Assembly: GCF_053078305.1 (NCBI RefSeq)
Contig: NZ_CP166879.1
Reading direction: 5' to 3' (one strand)
Length of the DNA: 64,000 nt
The notes beneath the pieces were generated by a model. It was not told the origin of the DNA. It saw only the letters and a list, made by a program, of their open reading frames with translations, and did no database searches. The translations under genes and the position numbers were made by a program. Shown in pieces: positions 2,194-10,206 of the stretch. Positions within the stretch are counted from its first letter, which is position 1, and each line of letters starts with the position of its first letter.

Positions 2194-2281
2194 GGTGAGG
2201 TGTCCGAGTGGCTGAAGGAGCACGCCTGGAAAGTGTGTATACGGCAACGTATCGGGGGTTCGAATCCCCCCCTCACCGCCA
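2194..2281 (+). tRNA. serX: tRNA-Ser (anticodon GGA) with long variable arm and encoded CCA
   Basis: GGTGAGG...CCTCACC acceptor stem, anticodon loop CTGGAAA, GGTTCGAATCC T-arm, 88 nt; position between ghrA and ycdU matches serX. Confidence 0.9.
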
Positions 2282-2294
2282 TATTTAAAGAAGA

Positions 2295-2322
2295 GCTCGT
2301 ACGAAAGTACGGGCTTTTTTTT
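2295..2322 (+). terminator. Rho-independent terminator after serX
   Basis: gctcgtac-gaaa-gtacgggc hairpin followed by an 8-T run, read directly. Confidence 0.7.
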
Positions 2323-2463
2323 CGTATATTGCACACACCGGGTGCCCCCGCCCACGTCTGTTAGGGCGAGGGGAAATCGTGAACATCAACTGTCTGGTTG
2401 CTCAGTCAACAATCAAAATGCGCAAGAGAGTACAGAACATATATGCGTTATCTGGTCACTTCC

Positions 2464-3450
2464 TCACTTATTAAAATGCCCCCAACGGAAATACATGTCA
2501 CATGCCATCATAAAATCGTTATGCCAGAGGAATCGACAATAGAAAAAATAGTAAATTAAGCACGGTACATAGCAGAGTAAAAAATAGGCTTCAAACCAAA
2601 TCCGCCATTCCACAAGCGTTGCCAATACCGACACCAGCGTAATCCACATCACTTCAATAACCAGCAATATGAATAACCGAAGCCAAAGCGGCTTGGCAAA
2701 AAAGGTCGACAACGCATTTTCACTGGAGAAAAACAGATCGATTTCCTGCAAAAAAAGCCTGCCCAGAAAAGCGTACCGCCTGGAGAAGCGCAGAAAAAAC
2801 AGATTAATCGCCAACACTACGCCACAAAGAATGAGCAATGCAATTATCGATTTAAACGTTAACCACTGCCCCTCTATCACAAAAGAATCACTGTTACGCA
2901 ACGGGCTGATAGTAAGCAAGTTAACAACCGTTGAGATGCACACCGAAAGCAGCACATAGCGAGTCAGACTTTTATATTTTACTTTTTTCGCTACTGAAAT
3001 AGCGACCTGCTTGACATAACTGGTGCGGATCATCCGAAACAGCAGAAAGATGACCAACGGCCCAAGTAACGAAATCAGGAACAGCGCATATAACGAGGGT
3101 AGAAGCTGGTATAGCCCCCAACTCATTGCACTCAACATGATTAACGACAGAAATCCTGCCACCAGAGGTTGTGTAAGAAATAATTCTATTTTGTGGTTCT
3201 GCTTTTTCTTAAACCACGAAAAATCGATATTCTTCGTGACGCATTTATAAGCCCAGTACGCCTTGAGATCAAAAATAAAATTATACAGCACCAAGGCCAG
3301 AATCCCACTAACGACACCAATATCCTCTGATGGAAAAGTAAATCCTGCATTTTTCCAATAAAAGCCTATCAGAATAAGTCCAATAGCATAAATGTATATC
3401 AGACTTCGTTTATCCTGAAAGCGAATAAAAGTTAAATAATCAGGAATCAT
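2464..3450 (-). CDS. ycdU: Polytopic inner-membrane protein YcdU (328 aa)
   Basis: 328-aa highly hydrophobic ORF matching recalled YcdU; its ATG overlaps the stop of the upstream FabD-like gene (ATGA at 3447-3450). Confidence 0.8.
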
Positions 3451-4391
3451 TTGAATACCTTCGCATCACTAAATGCTTTACGACAATGCATAACTCGTTG
3501 CTGATCCACGCCAGCGAAATCATTTAACATATTCCCCAAATAGGGCTTATTACTTATTTCAAGGAAAGCTACCGAGGTTGGCATATTCAGAAATGTATCG
3601 AGAGATTCAGTCCATTTCACCGTATGAGTTAAGTGTAATGAGAGATTTTCTTTGATAATTGACGGAGCGACCTCGCTTTTTGCTGTTACGTTCATCAGAA
3701 CCTGATGCTCTGGCGAAGCGATATCCAGTCCGGCAAGATAATCGCGCATTGCCTGAACGCCGTCTTCCATCAAACGCGTGTGCCAGGCACCGCTCACACC
3801 GAGTTTAACCGGTTCGTATCCAGCGGCCATCAGCAGCGTGGCAAATTCATTCAACGCAGCCTGCGTTCCCCCAATAACCTGCTGGCGCGGCGTGTTATCA
3901 CAGCTAATATCCAGCGCAATGCCTGATTCCGTAATCATCGTCTGCAGTTGTTCGCGGTTGATGCCTTTAACCGCCAGCATTGCGCCTTTATTTCTCTGGC
4001 TTTCGTCATGCATCAGGCTGGCTCTGAAGTGAATCATGCCAAATAGCGTCTCAAGAGAAATAGCTCCGGCAGCGTAGAGCGCACTGTATTCACCAACGCT
4101 GTGTCCGCAGGACCCCACAACCGTTAAATTCTCAAGACGTTCACGGCACAGGGTATAGAGCGTTACATTAATTGCGGTCACCGCCAGTTGTTGTACCGTC
4201 GTTTGAATAAGGCGATTCATCGGCCCTTTCTGACACAGGCGACGCAGGTTCAGTCCGGAAATATCGCTGGCACAATCCCAGATATGTTTTGTACTGGCGT
4301 TGAGATCCCAAAGATCGCTGCCCATGCCAATAACCGGATTACCCTGACCGGCAAAAAGCAGTACTGTCGGTTGTGAAGCATTATTCATCAT
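3447..4391 (-). CDS. FabD-like malonyl-CoA:ACP transacylase (314 aa), intact counterpart of the K-12 ymdE fragment
   Basis: Acyltransferase GHSxG nucleophile motif (GHSVGE) and N-terminal FAGQG motif typical of FabD. Confidence 0.75.
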
Positions 4392-4401
4392 CTCTTTATC
4401 C

Positions 4402-5790
4402 TTATAGATAGTATTTAAAGCCCAAATAAAGGCCTAACGTGTCGCCAAAAAGCGAAAATTCAGAATACCGACTTCCCAGCGCGCTATAGCCACCGGCATA
4501 GGCTTCAAGCTGGTTACTGATAGCGCTGAGCGGCGTGGAATAATGCAGGCCCAGCAACGTGCTGCCATCAATGAGATTGACCACCAGCGAAGGCTGCAGC
4601 GTCGACTCTCCCGCCAGCGGCAGACTGGCCCAGGCGTTCAGATAGTGCTTACCCTGCAGCATCCCCTGATTGGCGGTATTGCTGATTTCTGAAGCCATCA
4701 GGTATTTGTAAGAATCAAATGCCTGATCCAGTGGCGCATAGCCGGTTGTGGTATTGAGGAAGTCAATTAACTCGCGCTGCTGACGCTGTTCAGCGCGCGA
4801 ATAACCCTCGCTCTGAAAGTAATACTCAACGCCAAACACGCTGAAATTATCACTGGTGTACTGCCCACCCAGCGCCAGCTCCACGCCGCTTTCATCTTTC
4901 GTTTCATAGAGCGAATCCGGAAACTGATATTCCTCGACCTGCGCCGTCTCATGGTGGGAAAGATGCCGCCATTGTTGGGAGCGGTGGTAGGCTGCGTCGA
5001 CATTCAGCGTCAGCTGCGGGGTGTAGTGATAACTGTCAGACAGCGCGAGTGACGGCGATGGTCCGAGCCGCACATTGACTGTCGGTGTGTGCTCACCAAA
5101 GCGATGATCGCTGTAGCTCAGCAGATAGGCTTCGTCGCTGTTTCCCTGCTGATTAGCAGACCAGTTGCCAGACGTCACATAGCGTTTGTCGATGGTGGCT
5201 AACTTCGGTATGACGCTCGCCGAAAACGCATAATCGCGTGTATCCAAGTTCATTTTTGCGCCCCACGATGACGCCTGATACGCCGATGTCATTTTGGGAT
5301 CGTGCAAACGTGTCGACTGGAATCCGGTGTAATAATGCGTTTGCAAATCAGAAGGTGAACGCAAAAAGAACATTCCTGACGGCGCGGCAAATTTGCCTGC
5401 TTCAAATTGAACGCTGTCCGAGGCGCTATAGACCAGACTGAGGCGGTTAATTAACGCACGTGTGCGGCTATCATCCGTTTCGAATTTCCCTGCGGGTTTA
5501 AGCGCATATTCGTTTATTCCATACAGATTGAGCTTAAGTTCCAGCGTATTGTCGATTATCGAACAACCGCTGTTGATGCCAATCCCCGCCTCCTGATAAC
5601 CGTTGTGACGTGTGTAGGGATTTTTGCCTGCAATCTGCCAGGCCGAAGCCTGTTTATTGACATAAGACACTTGCTCGTAAAGCGTCACATCGCTGTTTTG
5701 TGCCACCTCGTCACCTGACAGGCAATCCGCCTGTAGCGTCAACGGCAGCGCAACACACAGCAACGAAGAGATCTTCAGCCTGCGTTTCAT
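4402..5790 (-). CDS. Secreted protein, putative outer-membrane beta-barrel (462 aa)
   Basis: N-terminal signal peptide (MKRRLKISSLLCVALPLTLQA), Tyr/Gly/Ser-rich with alternating hydrophobic pattern, aromatic-rich C-terminus; stop overlaps next gene start. Confidence 0.4.
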   Translation of the reverse strand: MKRRLKISSLLCVALPLTLQADCLSGDEVAQNSDVTLYEQVSYVNKQASAWQIAGKNPYTRHNGYQEAGIGINSGCSIIDNTLELKLNLYGINEYALKPAGKFETDDSRTRALINRLSLVYSASDSVQFEAGKFAAPSGMFFLRSPSDLQTHYYTGFQSTRLHDPKMTSAYQASSWGAKMNLDTRDYAFSASVIPKLATIDKRYVTSGNWSANQQGNSDEAYLLSYSDHRFGEHTPTVNVRLGPSPSLALSDSYHYTPQLTLNVDAAYHRSQQWRHLSHHETAQVEEYQFPDSLYETKDESGVELALGGQYTSDNFSVFGVEYYFQSEGYSRAEQRQQRELIDFLNTTTGYAPLDQAFDSYKYLMASEISNTANQGMLQGKHYLNAWASLPLAGESTLQPSLVVNLIDGSTLLGLHYSTPLSAISNQLEAYAGGYSALGSRYSEFSLFGDTLGLYLGFKYYL

Positions 5791-6575
5791 TTCGCACCTC
5801 GCTGAATATACTCTTTGGTGAAATGAAACTCCGGCAGCGATTCCAGACGAACATCGCTGTACTCCATCACTGAATAGTTATTGCCGTGACGAACATCGGT
5901 AACGGTTATTTTCATGGGTCGCGTTTTCCCCAGCACCGGCTGGAAATCCTGATACAACACTTCTTTTATTAACTGGTCATCCTGCGAGTAATAGGCTGCC
6001 TTCCACGGGCGATTATCACCGTCTTTTTCAACGTAATAGATGACCTTCGGCCAGGTGATATCCGCCGATTTACGCACCAGCGCCAGCTTGTAACACTGCT
6101 TTTCAGCACACGTGACTTCCCCCACCAGGGTCGAGTCATAGGCATATTCAAAGTTAGTGACAATGACATCGCCGTTAGAGATTTGCCCAATTAATCTTTG
6201 TTGCCGTGAAATAGGCATAGGACGTCGCAGTTCCGGCGTGTAAAACCATAAATCGTACCAGTCGGAAAGCATGATTTTTCCTTTATCTCGCGGCGGATAA
6301 ATAAAACGCACCAGCGAGCGTGCATCCGCTTTTTCATTACCCTGCGGTTTCATAAAGCGCATGGAAATATCGAGGACCTGTTTATTCTCTGGCTGGGTTA
6401 CGCCCGCTTTATATTCCGTTACCGTCAGCGTGTAACGAAACGGTTTATTCGGCGAACGAATTTCGTCAGCGCGACGAATTATCTCCAGCGCCTTATTATC
6501 TGTGCTCGCCGCCTGAACGCACGACGTAGCGAGCCACAGGCAAGCAAACCACTTGCCGTAAAAAGCCATATTCAT
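5787..6575 (-). CDS. Periplasmic LolA-like lipid/lipoprotein carrier family protein (262 aa)
   Basis: Signal peptide followed by a soluble domain; placement between FtsX permease and OMP as in Lol-like modules; family assignment by composition and context only. Confidence 0.4.
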   Translation of the reverse strand: MNMAFYGKWFACLWLATSCVQAASTDNKALEIIRRADEIRSPNKPFRYTLTVTEYKAGVTQPENKQVLDISMRFMKPQGNEKADARSLVRFIYPPRDKGKIMLSDWYDLWFYTPELRRPMPISRQQRLIGQISNGDVIVTNFEYAYDSTLVGEVTCAEKQCYKLALVRKSADITWPKVIYYVEKDGDNRPWKAAYYSQDDQLIKEVLYQDFQPVLGKTRPMKITVTDVRHGNNYSVMEYSDVRLESLPEFHFTKEYIQRGAK

Positions 6576-6583
6576 AATTAGCC

Positions 6584-7894
6584 CTATGAGAATTTAAATG
6601 CGTCAGAAATATTCAACCGGGAAGCACGTAAAGCCGGTAACACAGAGGCGCCTGTTGCTGTCAAAATGGGTAATACCACCGTCACCCAAATCAATTCCGG
6701 GTTACTGGTTTTTATAAAGGCGGTATAGCCGATGGTTTGTCCCGGCGATGGCGGCATCGCAATACCATAAAGATTAATAATCCAGGCTAACACGCCCCCC
6801 ACCAGCAGGCTGCCGACTGCGCCAATCACACCAATAAAAATGCCTTCTGTCAGAAACAAGCGCGTGACGTGAAGCGGCTTCAGGCCTATGGCACGCAGAG
6901 TGGTAATTTCACGGGTGCGCTCAACAATGTTCATTGCCATCGAGTTGCCGATCATGAAGATGACAATCAGCGCAACAATCAGCTTGATGAAGAAATAGAT
7001 CCCCGATAGCAACCCTTCAACCTGTTGATAAAAGAGTGAAACATCACGCCAGTCTTTGACCACCAGCGGCAAATGATTGCGTTCGATAAATTGACGCAGC
7101 TTTGCGCTAAACGCCGCGGTGTCATCTTCTTTAAGCAGAATAAGCACTTTGCTGACGCCATCCGTACCCATCATGCGCTGCGCGGTGTCCAGCGGGATCT
7201 TCATCGCGACATCGTCATAATCTTTAATGCCTGACTCAAAAATGCCACGCAGTTTTAGCGACAATGCGCCCTGCCCGCCCGCCGTGTTGACCACCATCAC
7301 ATCCAGCCAGTCGTCGTATTTCGCATTCAACGTTTTCGCCAGGCCGCTGCCCAGGGTGATTTCATCACCTTTTACCCGGGAAAGGTCGCTCCCCGCGATA
7401 ATCTTATCGAACGATCCCAGCTTTAAAGCGGGCAATGGCTCGACACCCAGCGCAGAGAAATAGCTGGAGGTTTCGCTCTCGTAATGTGAAATTACGCCAG
7501 TAAACTCCAGTTGCCCGGAGAGCGTGGAAATATCCGTCGCCAGCGTCGGGTCCGACAAAATAGCTTTCTTTAACGCCGCATAATCGGCAATCAGGCTCTT
7601 ATTTTTATTCGACGTTTCAAAATAGTGCTGATTGTAAATCTGCACATGACCAATATTGGTACGAATCGTCTGCTCTTTCAGGATCCAGAAAGAGTAATCA
7701 ATAAATCCGCCATATAAAAAGATCGCCACACCACCCAATACAATAGCGGTTATGGTAGAAAAAGAGCGACGCTTGTGGCGAAAGAGATTCAAAAATGCAA
7801 ATTTGACATCTCGTGAATAAAACAGAACCTGATAAAACACAAAAAACAGGATCAGCAGCAGAACGCTATTAACAGCTAAAATTTCCCCGGACAT
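6584..7894 (-). CDS. ABC transporter permease, FtsX/MacB/LolC-like (436 aa)
   Basis: N-terminal TM helix, large periplasmic domain, C-terminal 3-TM FtsX-like domain (…IVERTREITTLRAIGLKP…). Confidence 0.7.
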   Translation of the reverse strand: MSGEILAVNSVLLLILFFVFYQVLFYSRDVKFAFLNLFRHKRRSFSTITAIVLGGVAIFLYGGFIDYSFWILKEQTIRTNIGHVQIYNQHYFETSNKNKSLIADYAALKKAILSDPTLATDISTLSGQLEFTGVISHYESETSSYFSALGVEPLPALKLGSFDKIIAGSDLSRVKGDEITLGSGLAKTLNAKYDDWLDVMVVNTAGGQGALSLKLRGIFESGIKDYDDVAMKIPLDTAQRMMGTDGVSKVLILLKEDDTAAFSAKLRQFIERNHLPLVVKDWRDVSLFYQQVEGLLSGIYFFIKLIVALIVIFMIGNSMAMNIVERTREITTLRAIGLKPLHVTRLFLTEGIFIGVIGAVGSLLVGGVLAWIINLYGIAMPPSPGQTIGYTAFIKTSNPELIWVTVVLPILTATGASVLPALRASRLNISDAFKFS

Positions 7895-8551
7895 TTACTC
7901 ACCTTTCATCAGCGGCAGCAGTACCTGGGTTAACTCTTCACTATCCCATTCTGGTACAACATTAAAATCCTGCGTCAGCGACTGCGCAAGCGCGGCGTTT
8001 TGCCCTTTAATTTGCGCCAACAACGCATTCGCGTGGGTGGTGTCCTTGCAGTGACGTAATGCGCGATAACGCATCGCCAGAATATGGTCGCGGATCGTTG
8101 TCGCCCATATCGCCGGGTCAGCCAGCATGTGTTCGGTGTCTTTGACTGTCACCACGCAACGCCCTGAATCTGCCGGTAAATAGGCATCTACGCGGGCGCG
8201 TAAATAGCGTACGCGTTGATTTTTCTCCTGCAAATCCACCGCTTCATCCAGCCAGAAAAAGCCGCTTTTGGCGTATTCTGAGGCATGGATAAAATCGTTT
8301 GTTGCCGCATAACCGTCCGCCTGACGCAGTAAGCCATAGGCGTAAAAAACCAGCGCCACCACATTGTGCCTGGCTTCATACTCTTTCTTTAACGCTTCGG
8401 TCAGCGTCGCCAGCGCGGCAGGCTGCGCCGGAAGCCCTTGTTGCAGAACCTGGTTAACGGCGTCGGGAGTTGCCGCGTAAATCTTCGGGGCCAAAAACGC
8501 CGCGTACAAAAAGACGCCGATAAGCAAAAATCCTTTATGCATCTGAGTCAT
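7895..8551 (-). CDS. Signal-peptide-bearing periplasmic protein of unknown function (218 aa)
   Basis: ORF with cleavable N-terminal signal peptide, Ala/Leu-rich helical composition; sits between the ABC ATPase and permease genes. Confidence 0.4.
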   Translation of the reverse strand: MTQMHKGFLLIGVFLYAAFLAPKIYAATPDAVNQVLQQGLPAQPAALATLTEALKKEYEARHNVVALVFYAYGLLRQADGYAATNDFIHASEYAKSGFFWLDEAVDLQEKNQRVRYLRARVDAYLPADSGRCVVTVKDTEHMLADPAIWATTIRDHILAMRYRALRHCKDTTHANALLAQIKGQNAALAQSLTQDFNVVPEWDSEELTQVLLPLMKGE

Positions 8552-9242
8552 GAATCAATACTCCATCCTGAATTTCAACCACTCGCCGCGCCCGCGCTTT
8601 TAATTCGCTGGAGTGCGTGGAAATAACAAATGTGGTGCCTGTCTGCTGATTAATCGTCAACAGCAGGTCCAAAATAGCCTCGCCGGTTGCCAGGTCTAAA
8701 TTTCCCGTCGGTTCATCGGCAATGACCACCATCGGTTCGTGGGCCAGTGCCCGGGCGATGGCGACACGCTGTTGTTGACCGCCCGATAATTGCCCAGGTT
8801 TGCGATCGCCAAAACCGCTTAATCCAACACTATCGAGATAATGCAGCGTCCGTTCAGTGGCTTCTTTTTTACTGAACTGACCATTAAGCACCAGTGGGAA
8901 ATAAACGTTATCGAAAACATTTAATACCGGCATAAGGTTAAAAAACTGAAAAATAAAACCCAAATGTTTTCCACGAATCACAGCCAACTGCTCTTCTGGC
9001 AGTTGGTTCAGTAATTTATTTAAAAATATCACCGTTCCGCTGGTCGGTTTATCAATACCCGAGAGAATATTCAACAGAGTACTTTTACCACTGCCTGACG
9101 GCCCACACAGTGCGAGAAATTCGCCTTTATTGATATCAAGATTAATGCTTTTAAGCGCATCAACCTTTCCTGCCCCAGCGCCATAACACTTATAAATATT
9201 GCTAAGCGAAATAGCGGGCAACGATTTAATAGTAGATTGCAT
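8535..9242 (-). CDS. ABC transporter ATP-binding protein (about 235 aa; start set at MQSTIKSL, ORF track extends to 9329)
   Basis: Walker A GPSGSGKST, ABC signature LSGGQQQRVAIARAL, Walker B VVIADEPT. Confidence 0.8.
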   Translation of the reverse strand: MQSTIKSLPAISLSNIYKCYGAGAGKVDALKSINLDINKGEFLALCGPSGSGKSTLLNILSGIDKPTSGTVIFLNKLLNQLPEEQLAVIRGKHLGFIFQFFNLMPVLNVFDNVYFPLVLNGQFSKKEATERTLHYLDSVGLSGFGDRKPGQLSGGQQQRVAIARALAHEPMVVIADEPTGNLDLATGEAILDLLLTINQQTGTTFVISTHSSELKARARRVVEIQDGVLIHDSDA

Positions 9243-9252
9243 ACGACTGTCG

Positions 9253-10206
9253 TTATCCTTCAAGGTATTCAAGGTCAAAGTAGTGATAACCAAACTGTTT
9301 ATCAGCAATGACCGTACGCATTTTTCCACCGGGCTGAATATGACGGGTTAAATAATCCATACTCAACGCGGGCGTCAGACAACCGCTTTCACCGTAATGG
9401 GCCACCAGGTCGATAACGCCAGCAGCAGGCCGGGACGGCATTTGTTGCCGTTCGCTGAAGGCCATGACATCAATATCCGTAGCATGCTGTGGCGCAGTGC
9501 CGGAATGATATTCCCCGCATTGCAGCCTGATGGCGCTCTCACGCTGGCTGAGAATAAAACAACCCACGCGTTCAACAGATAAATTCACCTCATCAGCGCG
9601 ACGGGGGAATAAACGCTTAGGCGGTTTACCCACATCCTCTTCAGAGAATACCAGTACCGGAATTGCCCGATAGGCAGCGCAAATCACCACGTTATCGAAT
9701 ACATCCCAGGCGAGATAATCCTGCGCCATACGCAGCGCCTGAACGAATGCCTGTTTTTCGCCGCGAATCTTGCAAGTCGGTTCCGTTATCGAAAACTTCT
9801 TAAGTAAATTCTTGGGAAGCGTATCAATAGTGGCGATATGCAGCGCACTGGAAATTTTTTCAAACGAACCGGATTCGCCCCAGGAATCGGCATAAATAAA
9901 TGCCGTGCGCGATTTCATTAACTTCATGCGCTCTTTAGTCGGCATTTGTTGTAATGCAGAATCGGTTACCTGCTCCATCGCCTCAAGGTAAGGCATATAT
10001 TGTGGATTACGGATCCGTTCCGGCGCATAAATATCGTTCTCAACGCCAAAGCGCTTCAGCCCCCAGCCATTAGCACGGGTGCCGTATAATCCCCTTTCGT
10101 ACATATGTGCTTCCCAGGCGTTGAGCCAGGTCGGCTGATAAAAATAAAAAATGTCGTCCGGTTCCGTAAGCGCCCAGGAAGACAGGTAGATACTCTTTTC
10201 CGTCAT
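9253..10206 (-). CDS. Hypothetical protein (317 aa) within the lipid biosynthesis cluster
   Basis: ORF tightly packed between the KS-like gene and the ABC ATPase gene; no motif I can assign confidently. Confidence 0.4.
   Translation of the reverse strand: MTEKSIYLSSWALTEPDDIFYFYQPTWLNAWEAHMYERGLYGTRANGWGLKRFGVENDIYAPERIRNPQYMPYLEAMEQVTDSALQQMPTKERMKLMKSRTAFIYADSWGESGSFEKISSALHIATIDTLPKNLLKKFSITEPTCKIRGEKQAFVQALRMAQDYLAWDVFDNVVICAAYRAIPVLVFSEEDVGKPPKRLFPRRADEVNLSVERVGCFILSQRESAIRLQCGEYHSGTAPQHATDIDVMAFSERQQMPSRPAAGVIDLVAHYGESGCLTPALSMDYLTRHIQPGGKMRTVIADKQFGYHYFDLEYLEG

What the first reader, a model, noticed from the sequence alone, without database searches (positions are those of the whole stretch)
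2464..4391. ycdU is translationally coupled to the FabD-like gene, suggesting K-12 ycdU is an orphaned cluster member
The FabD-like stop codon and the ycdU start codon overlap in ATGA (3447-3450) on the minus strand. In K-12 only a fragment of the acyltransferase gene (ymdE) remains upstream of ycdU. Here the acyltransferase gene is full length and continuous with the whole lipid cluster, so YcdU, a polytopic inner-membrane protein of unknown function, is probably the terminal component of this pathway.
Basis: partly seen in the sequence, partly recalled or inferred. Interest (0 to 1): 0.6.

Follow-up and report, generated by a model that had tools for sequence, protein, structure and literature searches.

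The report
ycdU: orphaned last gene of a lipid operon
The E. coli K-12 gene ycdU, a membrane protein of unknown function, is the surviving last gene of a roughly 15-gene lipid-synthesis-and-export operon that an IS3-linked deletion removed from K-12, so its function should be studied in strains that still carry the operon.

Summary
On the minus strand the FabD-like ORF (3447-4391) ends in TGA inside ATGA (3450-3447), and that ATG starts ycdU (2464-3450). K-12 has dgcT, IS3, a 357-bp 3' remnant of the same acyltransferase gene (ymdE), then ycdU.

The main interpretation is strongly supported. In all 28 loci outside E. coli where the upstream flank could be read, a YcdU homologue lies directly after a FabD-like gene at the 3' end of the same collinear cluster. 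These loci span more than 12 genera and include relatives only 14-22% identical. The chromosomal neighbourhoods differ, and no downstream gene is conserved.

Among 5426 complete E. coli genomes, ycdU is in 2662 and the cluster in 390. About 85% of ycdU-positive genomes are therefore IS3-bordered orphans.

The ATGA overlap itself is not conserved. It occurs in 4 lineages; the others have gaps of 4-34 nt. Translational coupling remains an inference.

YcdU is a predicted 8-helix membrane protein with no solved-structure relative and no catalytic-type residue conserved across the family. My working hypothesis, at about 35%, is that it translocates or hands over the lipid product to the Lol-like exporter.

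The finding is useful for annotation and of moderate interest.

The parts
2464..3450 (-). ycdU, 328 aa. It is a predicted 8-helix inner-membrane protein and the conserved last gene of the cluster.
   Evidence: ORF. RefSeq calls it 'protein YcdU'. AF2 model has pLDDT 86 and pTM 0.83 with 8 long helices. A homologue occupies this position in 28 of 28 other loci.
3447..3450 (-). ATGA, where the stop of the FabD-like gene overlaps the start of ycdU.
   Evidence: Read directly. The same overlap is annotated in ET350 and in K-12.
3458..3462 (-). GAAGG, a Shine-Dalgarno-like element 7 nt upstream of the ycdU ATG, inside the end of the FabD-like ORF.
   Evidence: Sequence. It is an inference, not tested.
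3447..4391 (-). FabD-like malonyl-CoA:ACP transacylase, 314 aa (RefSeq start at 4388). K-12 ymdE is its 3' 357 bp.
   Evidence: NCBIfam TIGR00128 fabD, E 1.7e-52 but 178.7 bits against a cut-off of 260.9. Best solved relatives are PksC and DisD. GQG, GHSxGE, Arg at +25 and the AWH motif are all present.
3790..3790 (.). K-12-type deletion end point. Everything 5' of here in the operon, up to dgcT, is replaced by IS3. About 1550 complete genomes are of this type.
3975..3975 (.). Second IS3-bordered deletion end point, leaving a 528-bp remnant. About 727 complete genomes are of this type.
4402..5790 (-). 462-aa protein with a signal peptide and no known family; presumed outer-membrane component.
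   Evidence: Collinear in the other loci.
5787..6575 (-). LolA-like periplasmic carrier (Pfam TP_0789-like).
   Evidence: RefSeq calls it 'outer membrane lipoprotein-sorting protein'. Orthologues hit PF17131.
6584..7894 (-). FtsX/LolCE-like ABC permease.
   Evidence: NCBIfam TIGR02212 lolCE, E 2.8e-26, below the cut-off.
7895..8551 (-). 218-aa protein with an N-terminal signal or anchor; no known family.
8535..9329 (-). LolD/DevA-like ABC ATPase.
   Evidence: NCBIfam TIGR02211, E 1.1e-67, below the cut-off.
9253..10206 (-). 317-aa cytoplasmic protein with a FabH/KS-III-like thiolase fold; candidate chain-joining or off-loading enzyme.
   Evidence: AF2 pLDDT 85. Foldseek matches AbyA1, OleA, DpsC, CerJ and ChlB3 at E about 1e-10.
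10203..11492 (-). Divergent ketosynthase-like protein.
11431..13989 (-). 852-aa protein with two ketosynthase domains (FabF-like followed by a second KS-like domain).
   Evidence: Pfam domains on orthologues.
14063..15223 (-). GcvT-like aminomethyltransferase-family protein.
15259..15540 (-). Acyl carrier protein.
15562..16110 (-). FabZ/FabA-like dehydratase.
16114..16911 (-). SDR ketoreductase-like protein.
16889..17257 (-). Holo-ACP synthase (AcpS), first gene of the lipid part of the locus.
17273..22793 (-). Two-partner secretion pair directly upstream: ShlB/FhaC-type transporter (17273-18892) and a filamentous-haemagglutinin-like exoprotein (18981-22793).
   Evidence: The same tpsA-tpsB-acpS order occurs in L034, L035 and L036.
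2194..2281 (+). tRNA-Ser (serX), convergent with ycdU; it marks the end of the operon and the K-12 backbone.
   Evidence: coordinates converted from locus L001.

Best explanation
ycdU is the conserved 3'-terminal gene of a long, tightly packed operon. The operon encodes a dedicated type-II fatty-acid/polyketide-like synthase: AcpS, ketoreductase, dehydratase, ACP, a GcvT-like protein, a two-domain ketosynthase, a ketosynthase-like protein, a FabH-like enzyme and a FabD-like malonyl transacylase. It also encodes an envelope export route: a LolD-like ATPase, an FtsX/LolCE-like permease, a 218-aa periplasmic protein, a LolA-like carrier and a 462-aa presumed outer-membrane protein.

In E. coli this locus is part of O-island 47, between dgcT and serX. 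In the K-12 lineage and about 2270 other complete genomes, an IS3-bordered deletion removed everything from just after dgcT to the middle of the FabD-like gene. What remains is the ymdE fragment and an intact, poorly expressed, orphaned ycdU.

The conserved gene order, the orphan state and the IS3 borders are shown by tool results. Three things are inferred.

1. ycdU is co-transcribed with the FabD-like gene and probably translationally coupled to it. The junction is a 4-nt overlap or a gap of 4-34 nt in every locus.
2. YcdU is a non-catalytic inner-membrane component.
3. My preferred mechanism, at about 35% probability, rests on how LolCDE/MacB-type ABC systems work. They extract substrates from the periplasmic face of the inner membrane and do not carry them across it. 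The lipid is made on ACP in the cytoplasm and is probably released or joined by the FabH-like enzyme, so it still needs a step across the inner membrane. YcdU is the only polytopic membrane protein in the cluster apart from the permease. I therefore propose that it translocates the product or hands it to the exporter.

The confidence value below refers to cluster membership and the orphan origin, not to this mechanism.
For: Junction and K-12 remnant.

Synteny:
- 18 of 18 species loci from a genome-wide scan have KS852, KS429, h317, LolD-like, h218, permease, LolA-like, h462, FabD-like and ycdU in the same order. None has ghrA or ycdX nearby.
- Reverse tests seeded with h462 and h317 found ycdU after the FabD-like gene in Utexia, 'Neisseria sp.', a metagenome contig, Acinetobacter equi, Rahnella and Pantoea vagans.
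- An exhaustive profile search found about 30 remote full-length relatives. All 4 readable contexts have a FabD-like gene directly upstream. One of them (L030) lacks the LolA-like and h462 genes.
- No gene downstream of ycdU is shared beyond single genera, and the shared ones are mostly convergent.

E. coli population: ycdU is in 2662 of 5426 genomes, the cluster in 390 and the full junction in 389. Both truncation classes are IS3-bordered next to dgcT.

Expression: K-12 ycdU RNA counts are 53 and 64, against hundreds to tens of thousands for most other genes in the same table (PMC10294691). No sigma-70-like site lies on the minus strand between 3450 and 4400.

Mechanism:
- The model has 8 helices, and Lys/Arg-rich loops give an N-in/C-in topology.
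- There is no solved-structure relative.
- Family-wide invariant residues are only M1, Y68, P183 and G230, plus Pro, Gly and aromatic positions. No His, Asp, Ser or Cys is conserved.
- The best conserved block, LVLPLxxKPxFSLxxGY, falls in the predicted periplasmic loop between helices 5 and 6.
- A cytoplasmic FabH-like enzyme is available for chain release or joining.
- The ABC parts are LolCDE/DevA-like.
Against: - Co-transcription and translational coupling were not measured.
- The ATGA overlap is present in only 4 of the lineages examined.
- The orphan ycdU is intact in about 2270 genomes with few amino-acid changes. Goldstone et al. 2016 (PMC4951805) found ymdE-ycdU in the core genome of bovine-mastitis strains and argued for retained function, so an autonomous role in cluster-less strains is not excluded.
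- The translocator idea rests on elimination and analogy only. No substrate, partner or phenotype is known.
- The product of the cluster is unknown.
- The tight and very deep pairing with the FabD-like gene, kept even where the outer-membrane parts are absent, could equally point to a role on the synthase side.
Confidence: 0.85

Rival explanations
1. ycdU is an independent backbone gene that merely abuts the island. The overlap with the acyltransferase gene is incidental, and YcdU has its own function unrelated to the lipid cluster.
For: ycdU lies outside O-island 47 as defined against K-12 (z1528-z1556; PMC8565820). About 85% of ycdU-positive E. coli genomes lack the cluster. The ORF stays intact in them. 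Goldstone et al. report ymdE-ycdU as core genes of mastitis-associated strains.
Against: In 28 of 28 loci in other taxa the homologue is the last gene of the same cluster, in unrelated chromosomal contexts. This includes relatives at 14-22% identity. No stand-alone homologue was seen outside E. coli. All inspected E. coli orphans keep an IS3-bordered piece of the FabD-like gene. About 51% of E. coli genomes lack ycdU altogether. Expression in K-12 is very low.
Confidence: 0.05
2. YcdU is a membrane-bound enzyme, an acyltransferase or chain-release enzyme. It takes the finished acyl chain from ACP, or from the FabD-like protein, and attaches it to a membrane acceptor. This would make the FabD-like/YcdU pair an off-loading module.
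For: The FabD-like/YcdU pairing is the most deeply conserved adjacency and persists in L030, where the LolA-like and h462 genes are missing. The cluster has no thioesterase or PlsC-type acyltransferase. Within Enterobacterales, polar residues near the cytoplasmic face (D4, R10, Q12, H310, D318, R322) are invariant.
Against: Across the whole family no His, Asp, Ser or Cys is conserved; H310 and D318 are lost in the remote relatives. The FabD-like protein keeps the Arg that selects malonyl units, so it looks like a normal loader. A FabH-like enzyme of the kind that performs transfers and condensations (CerJ, ChlB3, OleA) is already encoded in the cluster. YcdU shows no fold similarity to MBOAT, PlsY or other membrane acyltransferases.
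Confidence: 0.2
3. YcdU is a non-catalytic membrane anchor or scaffold. It tethers the soluble synthase (FabD-like protein, ACP, ketosynthases) to the inner membrane next to the ABC exporter, without moving the lipid itself.
For: The gene is tightly linked to the FabD-like gene in every locus. No catalytic residues are conserved. Basic motifs on the cytoplasmic side (RRYxxxGE, YWxY) are conserved.
Against: The best conserved block lies in a predicted periplasmic loop, which a purely cytoplasmic docking role does not explain. Eight membrane helices are more than an anchor needs. There is no interaction evidence.
Confidence: 0.2

Closest known systems
E. coli K-12 ymdE (b1028, pseudogene) and ycdU (b1029), with O-island 47 of E. 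coli O157:H7 EDL933 (z1528-z1556)
   Same: It is the same locus. The window is 98.5% identical to O157:H7 over ycdU, the FabD-like gene and the 12.9-kb cluster. K-12 ymdE is the 3' 357 bp of the FabD-like gene. Earlier work noted that ymdE is cut by IS3 and that a 945-bp version exists in other phylogroups (PMC4951805).
   Different: No paper I could search ties ycdU to the lipid cluster or shows the conserved cluster across genera. The published O-island boundary, drawn against K-12, places ycdU outside the island. From memory, Perna et al. 2001 described OI-47 only as 'an adhesin and polyketide or fatty-acid biosynthesis system'; I did not check this here.
Aryl polyene (APE) and xanthomonadin-type clusters: a type-II polyketide/fatty-acid synthase plus LolA-like export to the outer membrane
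   Same: Both have a dedicated ACP, KS/KS-like pairs, a ketoreductase, a FabA/ApeI-like dehydratase (faint ApeI-like Pfam hits), a LolA-like carrier and envelope export genes in one operon.
   Different: This cluster has an ABC/FtsX (LolCDE-like) exporter rather than an MMPL/RND exporter. It also has a GcvT-like protein, a fused two-KS protein, a FabH-like enzyme, its own FabD-like loader and YcdU. No aryl-starter enzymes (ammonia lyase, CoA ligase), glycosyltransferase or thioesterase were annotated. The comparison with APE gene content rests on my own knowledge of that family.
LolCDE-LolA lipoprotein release system and the DevBCA heterocyst-glycolipid exporter
   Same: The ATPase scores against the LolD and DevA models and the permease against the LolC/E model. 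A LolA-like periplasmic protein is encoded next to them.
   Different: All scores are far below the curated cut-offs (227.7 against 307.75; 92.4 against 362.45). These are therefore paralogous Lol-like parts dedicated to this cluster, not the housekeeping Lol system. Neither known system has a YcdU-like partner.
Trans-acting malonyl-CoA:ACP transacylases of trans-AT polyketide synthases (PksC, DisD) and housekeeping FabD
   Same: The FabD-like protein aligns end to end with them (E 8e-33 to PksC) and has all catalytic motifs.
   Different: It scores below the FabD equivalog cut-off (178.7 against 260.9 bits). It is always followed by a YcdU-family membrane protein gene.

Membership tests
YcdU protein (E. 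coli b1029) and its family | Near-identity to K-12 YcdU over the full length | tested here: met
   99% identity over 328 aa to the cluster named 'protein YcdU [Escherichia coli]'. There are 3 non-synonymous differences from the K-12 gene.
YcdU protein (E. coli b1029) and its family | Polytopic inner-membrane protein | tested here: met
   The AF2 model has 8 long helices, pLDDT 86. Hydropathy segments and Lys/Arg-rich alternate loops are present. These are predictions only; the location was not measured.
YcdU protein (E. coli b1029) and its family | Membership of a curated family (Pfam or NCBIfam HMM) | tested here: not met
   No NCBIfam family at E<=0.001. No precomputed Pfam domain on any full-length homologue; the sole precomputed hit is on an unrelated partial match, P0112. 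The family exists only as a name given by annotation.
Malonyl-CoA:ACP transacylase (FabD, Acyl_transf_1) | GQG oxyanion motif, GHSxG nucleophile, Arg 25 residues after the Ser, and a catalytic His | tested here: met
   FAGQG, GHSVGEY, FRASLM (Arg at +25) and SGAWHT are seen in the alignment to PksC and in the sequence.
Malonyl-CoA:ACP transacylase (FabD, Acyl_transf_1) | Score above the curated cut-off of the housekeeping FabD equivalog model | tested here: not met
   TIGR00128 scores 178.7 bits against a cut-off of 260.9. It is a paralogue dedicated to the cluster, not housekeeping FabD.
Translationally coupled gene pair | Stop of the upstream gene overlaps or lies next to the start of the downstream gene, with a ribosome-binding site inside the upstream ORF | tested here: met
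   ATGA at 3450-3447 and GAAGG at 3462-3458. Other loci have an overlap or a 4-34 nt gap.
Translationally coupled gene pair | Downstream translation depends on translation of the upstream gene | not testable with these tools
   This needs reporter fusions with premature stops in the FabD-like gene.
Single operon (co-transcription of the cluster with ycdU) | Same strand, short junctions, no internal terminator or promoter, conserved order | tested here: inconclusive
   All 14 junctions measure from -77 to +73 nt. Order is conserved in 28 loci. The consensus scan shows no minus-strand promoter-like site in 3450-4400, but it has weak power, and some terminator-like hairpins appear at chance frequency. 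No RNA data for a cluster-positive strain were available.
Aryl polyene (APE) biosynthetic gene cluster | MMPL/RND exporter, aryl-starter enzymes, glycosyltransferase, acyltransferase and thioesterase set | tested here: not met
   None of these is annotated in the cluster or detected by NCBIfam. The exporter is ABC/FtsX. The list of APE features comes from my own knowledge.
LolCDE lipoprotein-release system | Scores above the curated cut-offs of the LolD and LolC/E models | tested here: not met
   LolD 227.7 against 307.75; lolCE 92.4 against 362.45. The parts are Lol-like only.

The most novel reading that the evidence does not exclude
YcdU founds a family of inner-membrane lipid translocators with a fold unlike any solved structure. 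It would be an obligatory partner of a dedicated malonyl transacylase in a conserved pathway linked to two-partner secretion. That pathway would make a so-far unknown envelope lipid, or a lipid attached to the neighbouring haemagglutinin-like exoprotein, and send it to the outer membrane in EHEC O157:H7, Enterobacter, Klebsiella, Kosakonia, Pantoea and others.
Probability: 0.2. Interest if true: 0.7.

Novelty: new variant of a known kind. Interest (0 to 1): 0.42.

Why it matters
ycdU is one of the E. coli K-12 genes whose function is still unknown. If it is a leftover from a deleted operon, that explains why work in K-12 has found nothing for it. It also shows where to look instead: strains that keep the whole operon, such as O157:H7, which carries it in O-island 47.

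The result bears on the reported association of ymdE-ycdU with mastitis strains. That association is more likely a marker of a deletion lineage than a functional two-gene unit.

It also draws attention to a widespread, uncharacterised lipid synthesis and export locus. The locus sits next to a two-partner-secretion adhesin in a major pathogen and in many plant- and gut-associated Enterobacterales. It includes at least three conserved protein families with no assigned function (YcdU, the 462-aa protein and the 218-aa protein) and a FabH-like enzyme that public annotation calls 'ATP-binding protein'.

Tried and rejected
- **Family libraries.** NCBIfam has no model that matches YcdU, h462, h218, h317 or the LolA-like protein. 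A PDB sequence search for h317 and h218 found nothing.
- **Aryl polyene hypothesis.** My first guess from memory was that this is the aryl polyene cluster. I rejected it after annotation: the cluster has no MMPL exporter and no aryl-starter enzymes, but has an ABC/FtsX exporter and a GcvT-like protein.
- **Literature.** A search by EDL933 locus tags returned only noise. Searches for the gene combination found nothing relevant. Reviews of OI-47 discuss only GrvA and VmpA.
- **Selection on the orphan copy.** dN/dS between the window, K-12 and SCEC020001 rests on 9-10 substitutions per pair (ratios 0.12-0.57) and cannot separate selection from recency.
- **Promoter and terminator scan.** Counts equal those of shuffled sequence, so the scan neither shows nor excludes a ycdU promoter.
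- **Base composition.** ycdU has 40.5% G+C against 48-54% for most cluster genes, but its GC3 is similar (0.48). The low G+C reflects its hydrophobic amino-acid content and says nothing about origin.
- **Not attempted.** I did not try a linker-fused FabD-like/YcdU structure prediction, because the tool does not report inter-domain confidence.
Full report
**What is in the window.** The window is E. coli chromosome and is 100% identical over the region to strain ET350. On the minus strand the order is as follows.

- Backbone: ycdX, ghrA and the convergent tRNA-Ser serX (2194-2281).
- Finding: ycdU (2464-3450) and a FabD-like acyltransferase gene (3447-4391).
- Export genes: a 462-aa secreted protein of unknown family, a LolA-like (TP_0789-like) protein, an FtsX/LolCE-like permease, a 218-aa anchored periplasmic protein and a LolD-like ATPase.
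- Synthase genes: a 317-aa protein, a divergent ketosynthase-like protein, an 852-aa two-ketosynthase-domain protein, a GcvT-like protein, ACP, a FabZ-like dehydratase, an SDR ketoreductase and AcpS (up to 17257).
- Upstream of these: a ShlB-type transporter and a filamentous-haemagglutinin-like exoprotein (17273-22793).
- Further upstream: a fimbrial operon, a regulator, an EAL protein and dgcT.

This is the layout of O-island 47 of O157:H7 (z1528-z1556; PMC8565820). The window is 98.5% identical to it.

**The observation.** The minus strand reads ...TTC AAA TGA and ATG ATT CCT..., so the two ORFs share ATGA at 3450-3447. A GAAGG lies 7 nt before the ATG. K-12 has dgcT, IS3, a 357-bp 3' fragment of the same acyltransferase gene and then ycdU, with the same overlap. 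The remnant differs from the window at 8 of 357 positions.

It is not an unusual feature. All 14 junctions of the cluster measure between -77 and +73 nt, and three of them are -4 overlaps.

- *Forward scan.* YcdU homologues form a small family almost confined to Enterobacterales (112 clusters at 90% identity). I scanned one genome per species with a profile of 25 homologues. This returned 18 usable loci from Mixta, Kosakonia, Enterobacter, Izhakiella, Silvania, Leclercia, Klebsiella oxytoca, Tenebrionibacter and Buttiauxella. In all 18 the homologue is preceded, in the same order and on the same strand, by the FabD-like, 462-aa, LolA-like, permease, 218-aa, ATPase, 317-aa, KS-like and two-KS genes. 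ghrA and ycdX are never nearby.
- *Reverse tests.* These started from other cluster proteins (the 462-aa protein, the 317-aa protein). They reached Utexia (Orbaceae), a genome labelled Neisseria sp., a metagenome contig, Acinetobacter equi, Rahnella sikkimica and Pantoea vagans. Each has the ycdU homologue directly after the FabD-like gene. In the 'Neisseria sp.' record the gene is present but was not called.
- *Remote relatives.* An exhaustive profile search of 1.84 billion representatives found about 30 remote full-length relatives at 14-22% identity. Four contexts were readable, and all have a FabD-like gene directly upstream in a recognisably related cluster. One of them lacks the LolA-like and 462-aa genes. 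A fifth contig starts just before the gene.
- *Downstream genes.* Nothing downstream of ycdU is conserved beyond single genera, and the neighbours are mostly convergent.

In total, 28 of 28 readable loci agree. ycdU is the conserved last gene of this cluster, and the cluster moves as a unit between chromosomal sites.

**E. coli population.** Counts come from 5426 complete genomes.

| State | Genomes |
|---|---|
| ycdU present | 2662 (2607 with at least 80% of the gene) |
| 12.9-kb cluster present | 390 (380 nearly complete) |
| Full-length FabD-like gene with its upstream neighbour | 389 |
| 176-bp segment 3795-3970 present | 1116 |

These counts imply the following.

- About 7% of genomes have the cluster with ycdU.
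- About 727 genomes have a 528-bp remnant of the FabD-like gene.
- About 1550 genomes have the 357-bp K-12-type remnant.
- About 51% of genomes lack ycdU.

The examples of both remnant classes that I inspected have IS3 in the same place and orientation next to dgcT. The orphan state therefore comes from one or two IS3-associated deletions of about 31 kb that were inherited clonally. It does not reflect independent maintenance of ycdU.

In K-12 the ycdU RNA level reported in a PhoB study is very low: 53 and 64 counts, against hundreds to tens of thousands for most other genes in the same table (PMC10294691). Goldstone et al. (PMC4951805) had already noted three things: ymdE is cut by IS3, a 945-bp version exists in other phylogroups, and ymdE-ycdU are core genes in mastitis isolates. 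They did not connect ycdU to the lipid cluster. I found no paper that does.

**The junction across taxa.** The 4-nt overlap occurs in E. coli, Tenebrionibacter, Acinetobacter equi and Rahnella. Elsewhere the stop lies 4-34 nt before the start, usually with a GG-rich element between them. In E. coli a 1-nt indel lengthened the FabD-like C-terminus and created the overlap. Close juxtaposition is universal, but the overlap is not. Translational coupling is plausible and unproven.

**What the two proteins are.** The FabD-like protein has every catalytic motif of malonyl-CoA:ACP transacylases, including the Arg that selects malonyl units. It aligns best with the trans-acting loaders PksC and DisD. 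It scores below the housekeeping FabD cut-off, so it is a dedicated loader.

Within Enterobacterales many polar residues are invariant, including the N-terminal MIPDY and a C-terminal WH..D....CDMY.R motif. Across the whole family only M1, Y68, P183 and G230, plus several Pro and aromatic positions, are conserved. No catalytic-type residue is retained. The best conserved block (LVLPLxxKPxFSLxxGY) lies in the predicted periplasmic loop between helices 5 and 6.

**How it most likely works.** The gene content is shown; the roles that follow are inferred. The cluster encodes a complete type-II synthase and a LolCDE-like ABC system with a LolA-like carrier and a presumed outer-membrane protein.

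The 317-aa protein is labelled 'ATP-binding protein' by public sources. It folds confidently (pLDDT 85) as a FabH/KS-III-type thiolase. Its closest structures are AbyA1, OleA, DpsC, CerJ and ChlB3, which are enzymes that join or transfer acyl chains. A cytoplasmic release or joining enzyme is therefore available.

By established knowledge of that family, LolCDE/MacB-type transporters take substrates from the periplasmic side of the inner membrane and do not carry them across it. That leaves one unassigned step: moving the product across the inner membrane or presenting it to the permease. YcdU is the only other polytopic membrane protein in the cluster.

| Role proposed for YcdU | Probability |
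|---|---|
| Translocates the product or hands it to the exporter | about 35% |
| Membrane acyltransferase or off-loading partner of the FabD-like protein | about 20% |
| Scaffold or anchor | about 20% |
| Something else | remainder |

The very deep pairing with the FabD-like gene is the main observation the translocator idea does not explain.

**Comparison with known systems.** The locus works like the aryl polyene, xanthomonadin and heterocyst-glycolipid systems, in that it combines a dedicated synthase with envelope export. It is not a member of the aryl polyene family, because the exporter type and the accessory enzymes differ. Its Lol-like parts score far below the curated Lol cut-offs. 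It is an uncharacterised variant of that general kind. From memory, it has been noted since 2001 only as a 'polyketide or fatty-acid biosynthesis system' in OI-47.

**Verdict.** Translational coupling and a terminal pathway step remain inferences. The result is a sound piece of gene-context annotation for a K-12 gene of unknown function and a pointer to an unstudied conserved locus. It is not a surprising new mechanism. Interest is 0.42.

Noticed in passing
window 17273-22793; also L034 1-2911, L035 1-2935, L036 1-2888, L025 13779-21371, L031 1848-10476, L032 12019-14217: A two-partner-secretion pair (haemagglutinin-like exoprotein plus ShlB/FhaC transporter) lies directly upstream of acpS in E. 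coli, Acinetobacter equi, Rahnella and Pantoea vagans. It also adjoins the cluster in Utexia and in two remote relatives, one of which has the order ycdU-acpS-shlB-tpsA. The adhesin-like system and the lipid cluster therefore appear to be one conserved unit. This raises the possibility of a lipid-modified or lipid-dependent exoprotein.
   Followed up: partly
window 9253-10206: Several public sources name the 317-aa cluster protein 'ATP-binding protein'. Its confident AF2 model has a FabH/KS-III thiolase fold closest to AbyA1, OleA, DpsC, CerJ and ChlB3. The public name is probably wrong, and the protein is a candidate chain-joining or off-loading enzyme.
   Followed up: yes
L026 12255-13235: The record labelled Neisseria sp. 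Ec49-e6-T10 contains an intact YcdU homologue (46% identity, full length) after the FabD-like gene. No gene is called there in the public gene calls.
   Followed up: yes
window 3447-3480: In E. coli the FabD-like ORF is 4-5 codons longer at its C-terminus than in most other genera, because of a 1-nt indel. This is what creates the ATGA overlap. The same kind of overlap arose separately in Tenebrionibacter, Acinetobacter equi and Rahnella.
   Followed up: partly
window 2464-3450 (protein residues 1-5): The N-terminus of YcdU (Met, Ile/Leu, Pro, then often Asp/Ser/Asn and Tyr/Phe) is conserved even in relatives at 14-22% identity. This is unusual for the first residues of a membrane protein. It could reflect a functional N-terminus or a constraint on the translation-initiation region.
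   Followed up: no
L030 1-11065; L029 and L032: The cluster exists in variant forms. L030 lacks the LolA-like and 462-aa genes but keeps the FabD-like/YcdU pair. L029 and L032 carry an extra SDR gene between the permease and the LolA-like gene.
   Followed up: partly
window 2282-2463 compared with K-12 locus L002 9520-10199: The window has no RtT sRNA repeat between ycdU and serX. K-12 has four tandem copies and strain SCEC020001 has one, so the copy number varies at this site.
   Followed up: no
E. coli records: Five or six matches to ycdU and the FabD-like remnant lie on records labelled as plasmids, for example a 306-kb record of strain STEC711. These may be chromosomal pieces assigned to plasmids, or real transfers.
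   Followed up: no
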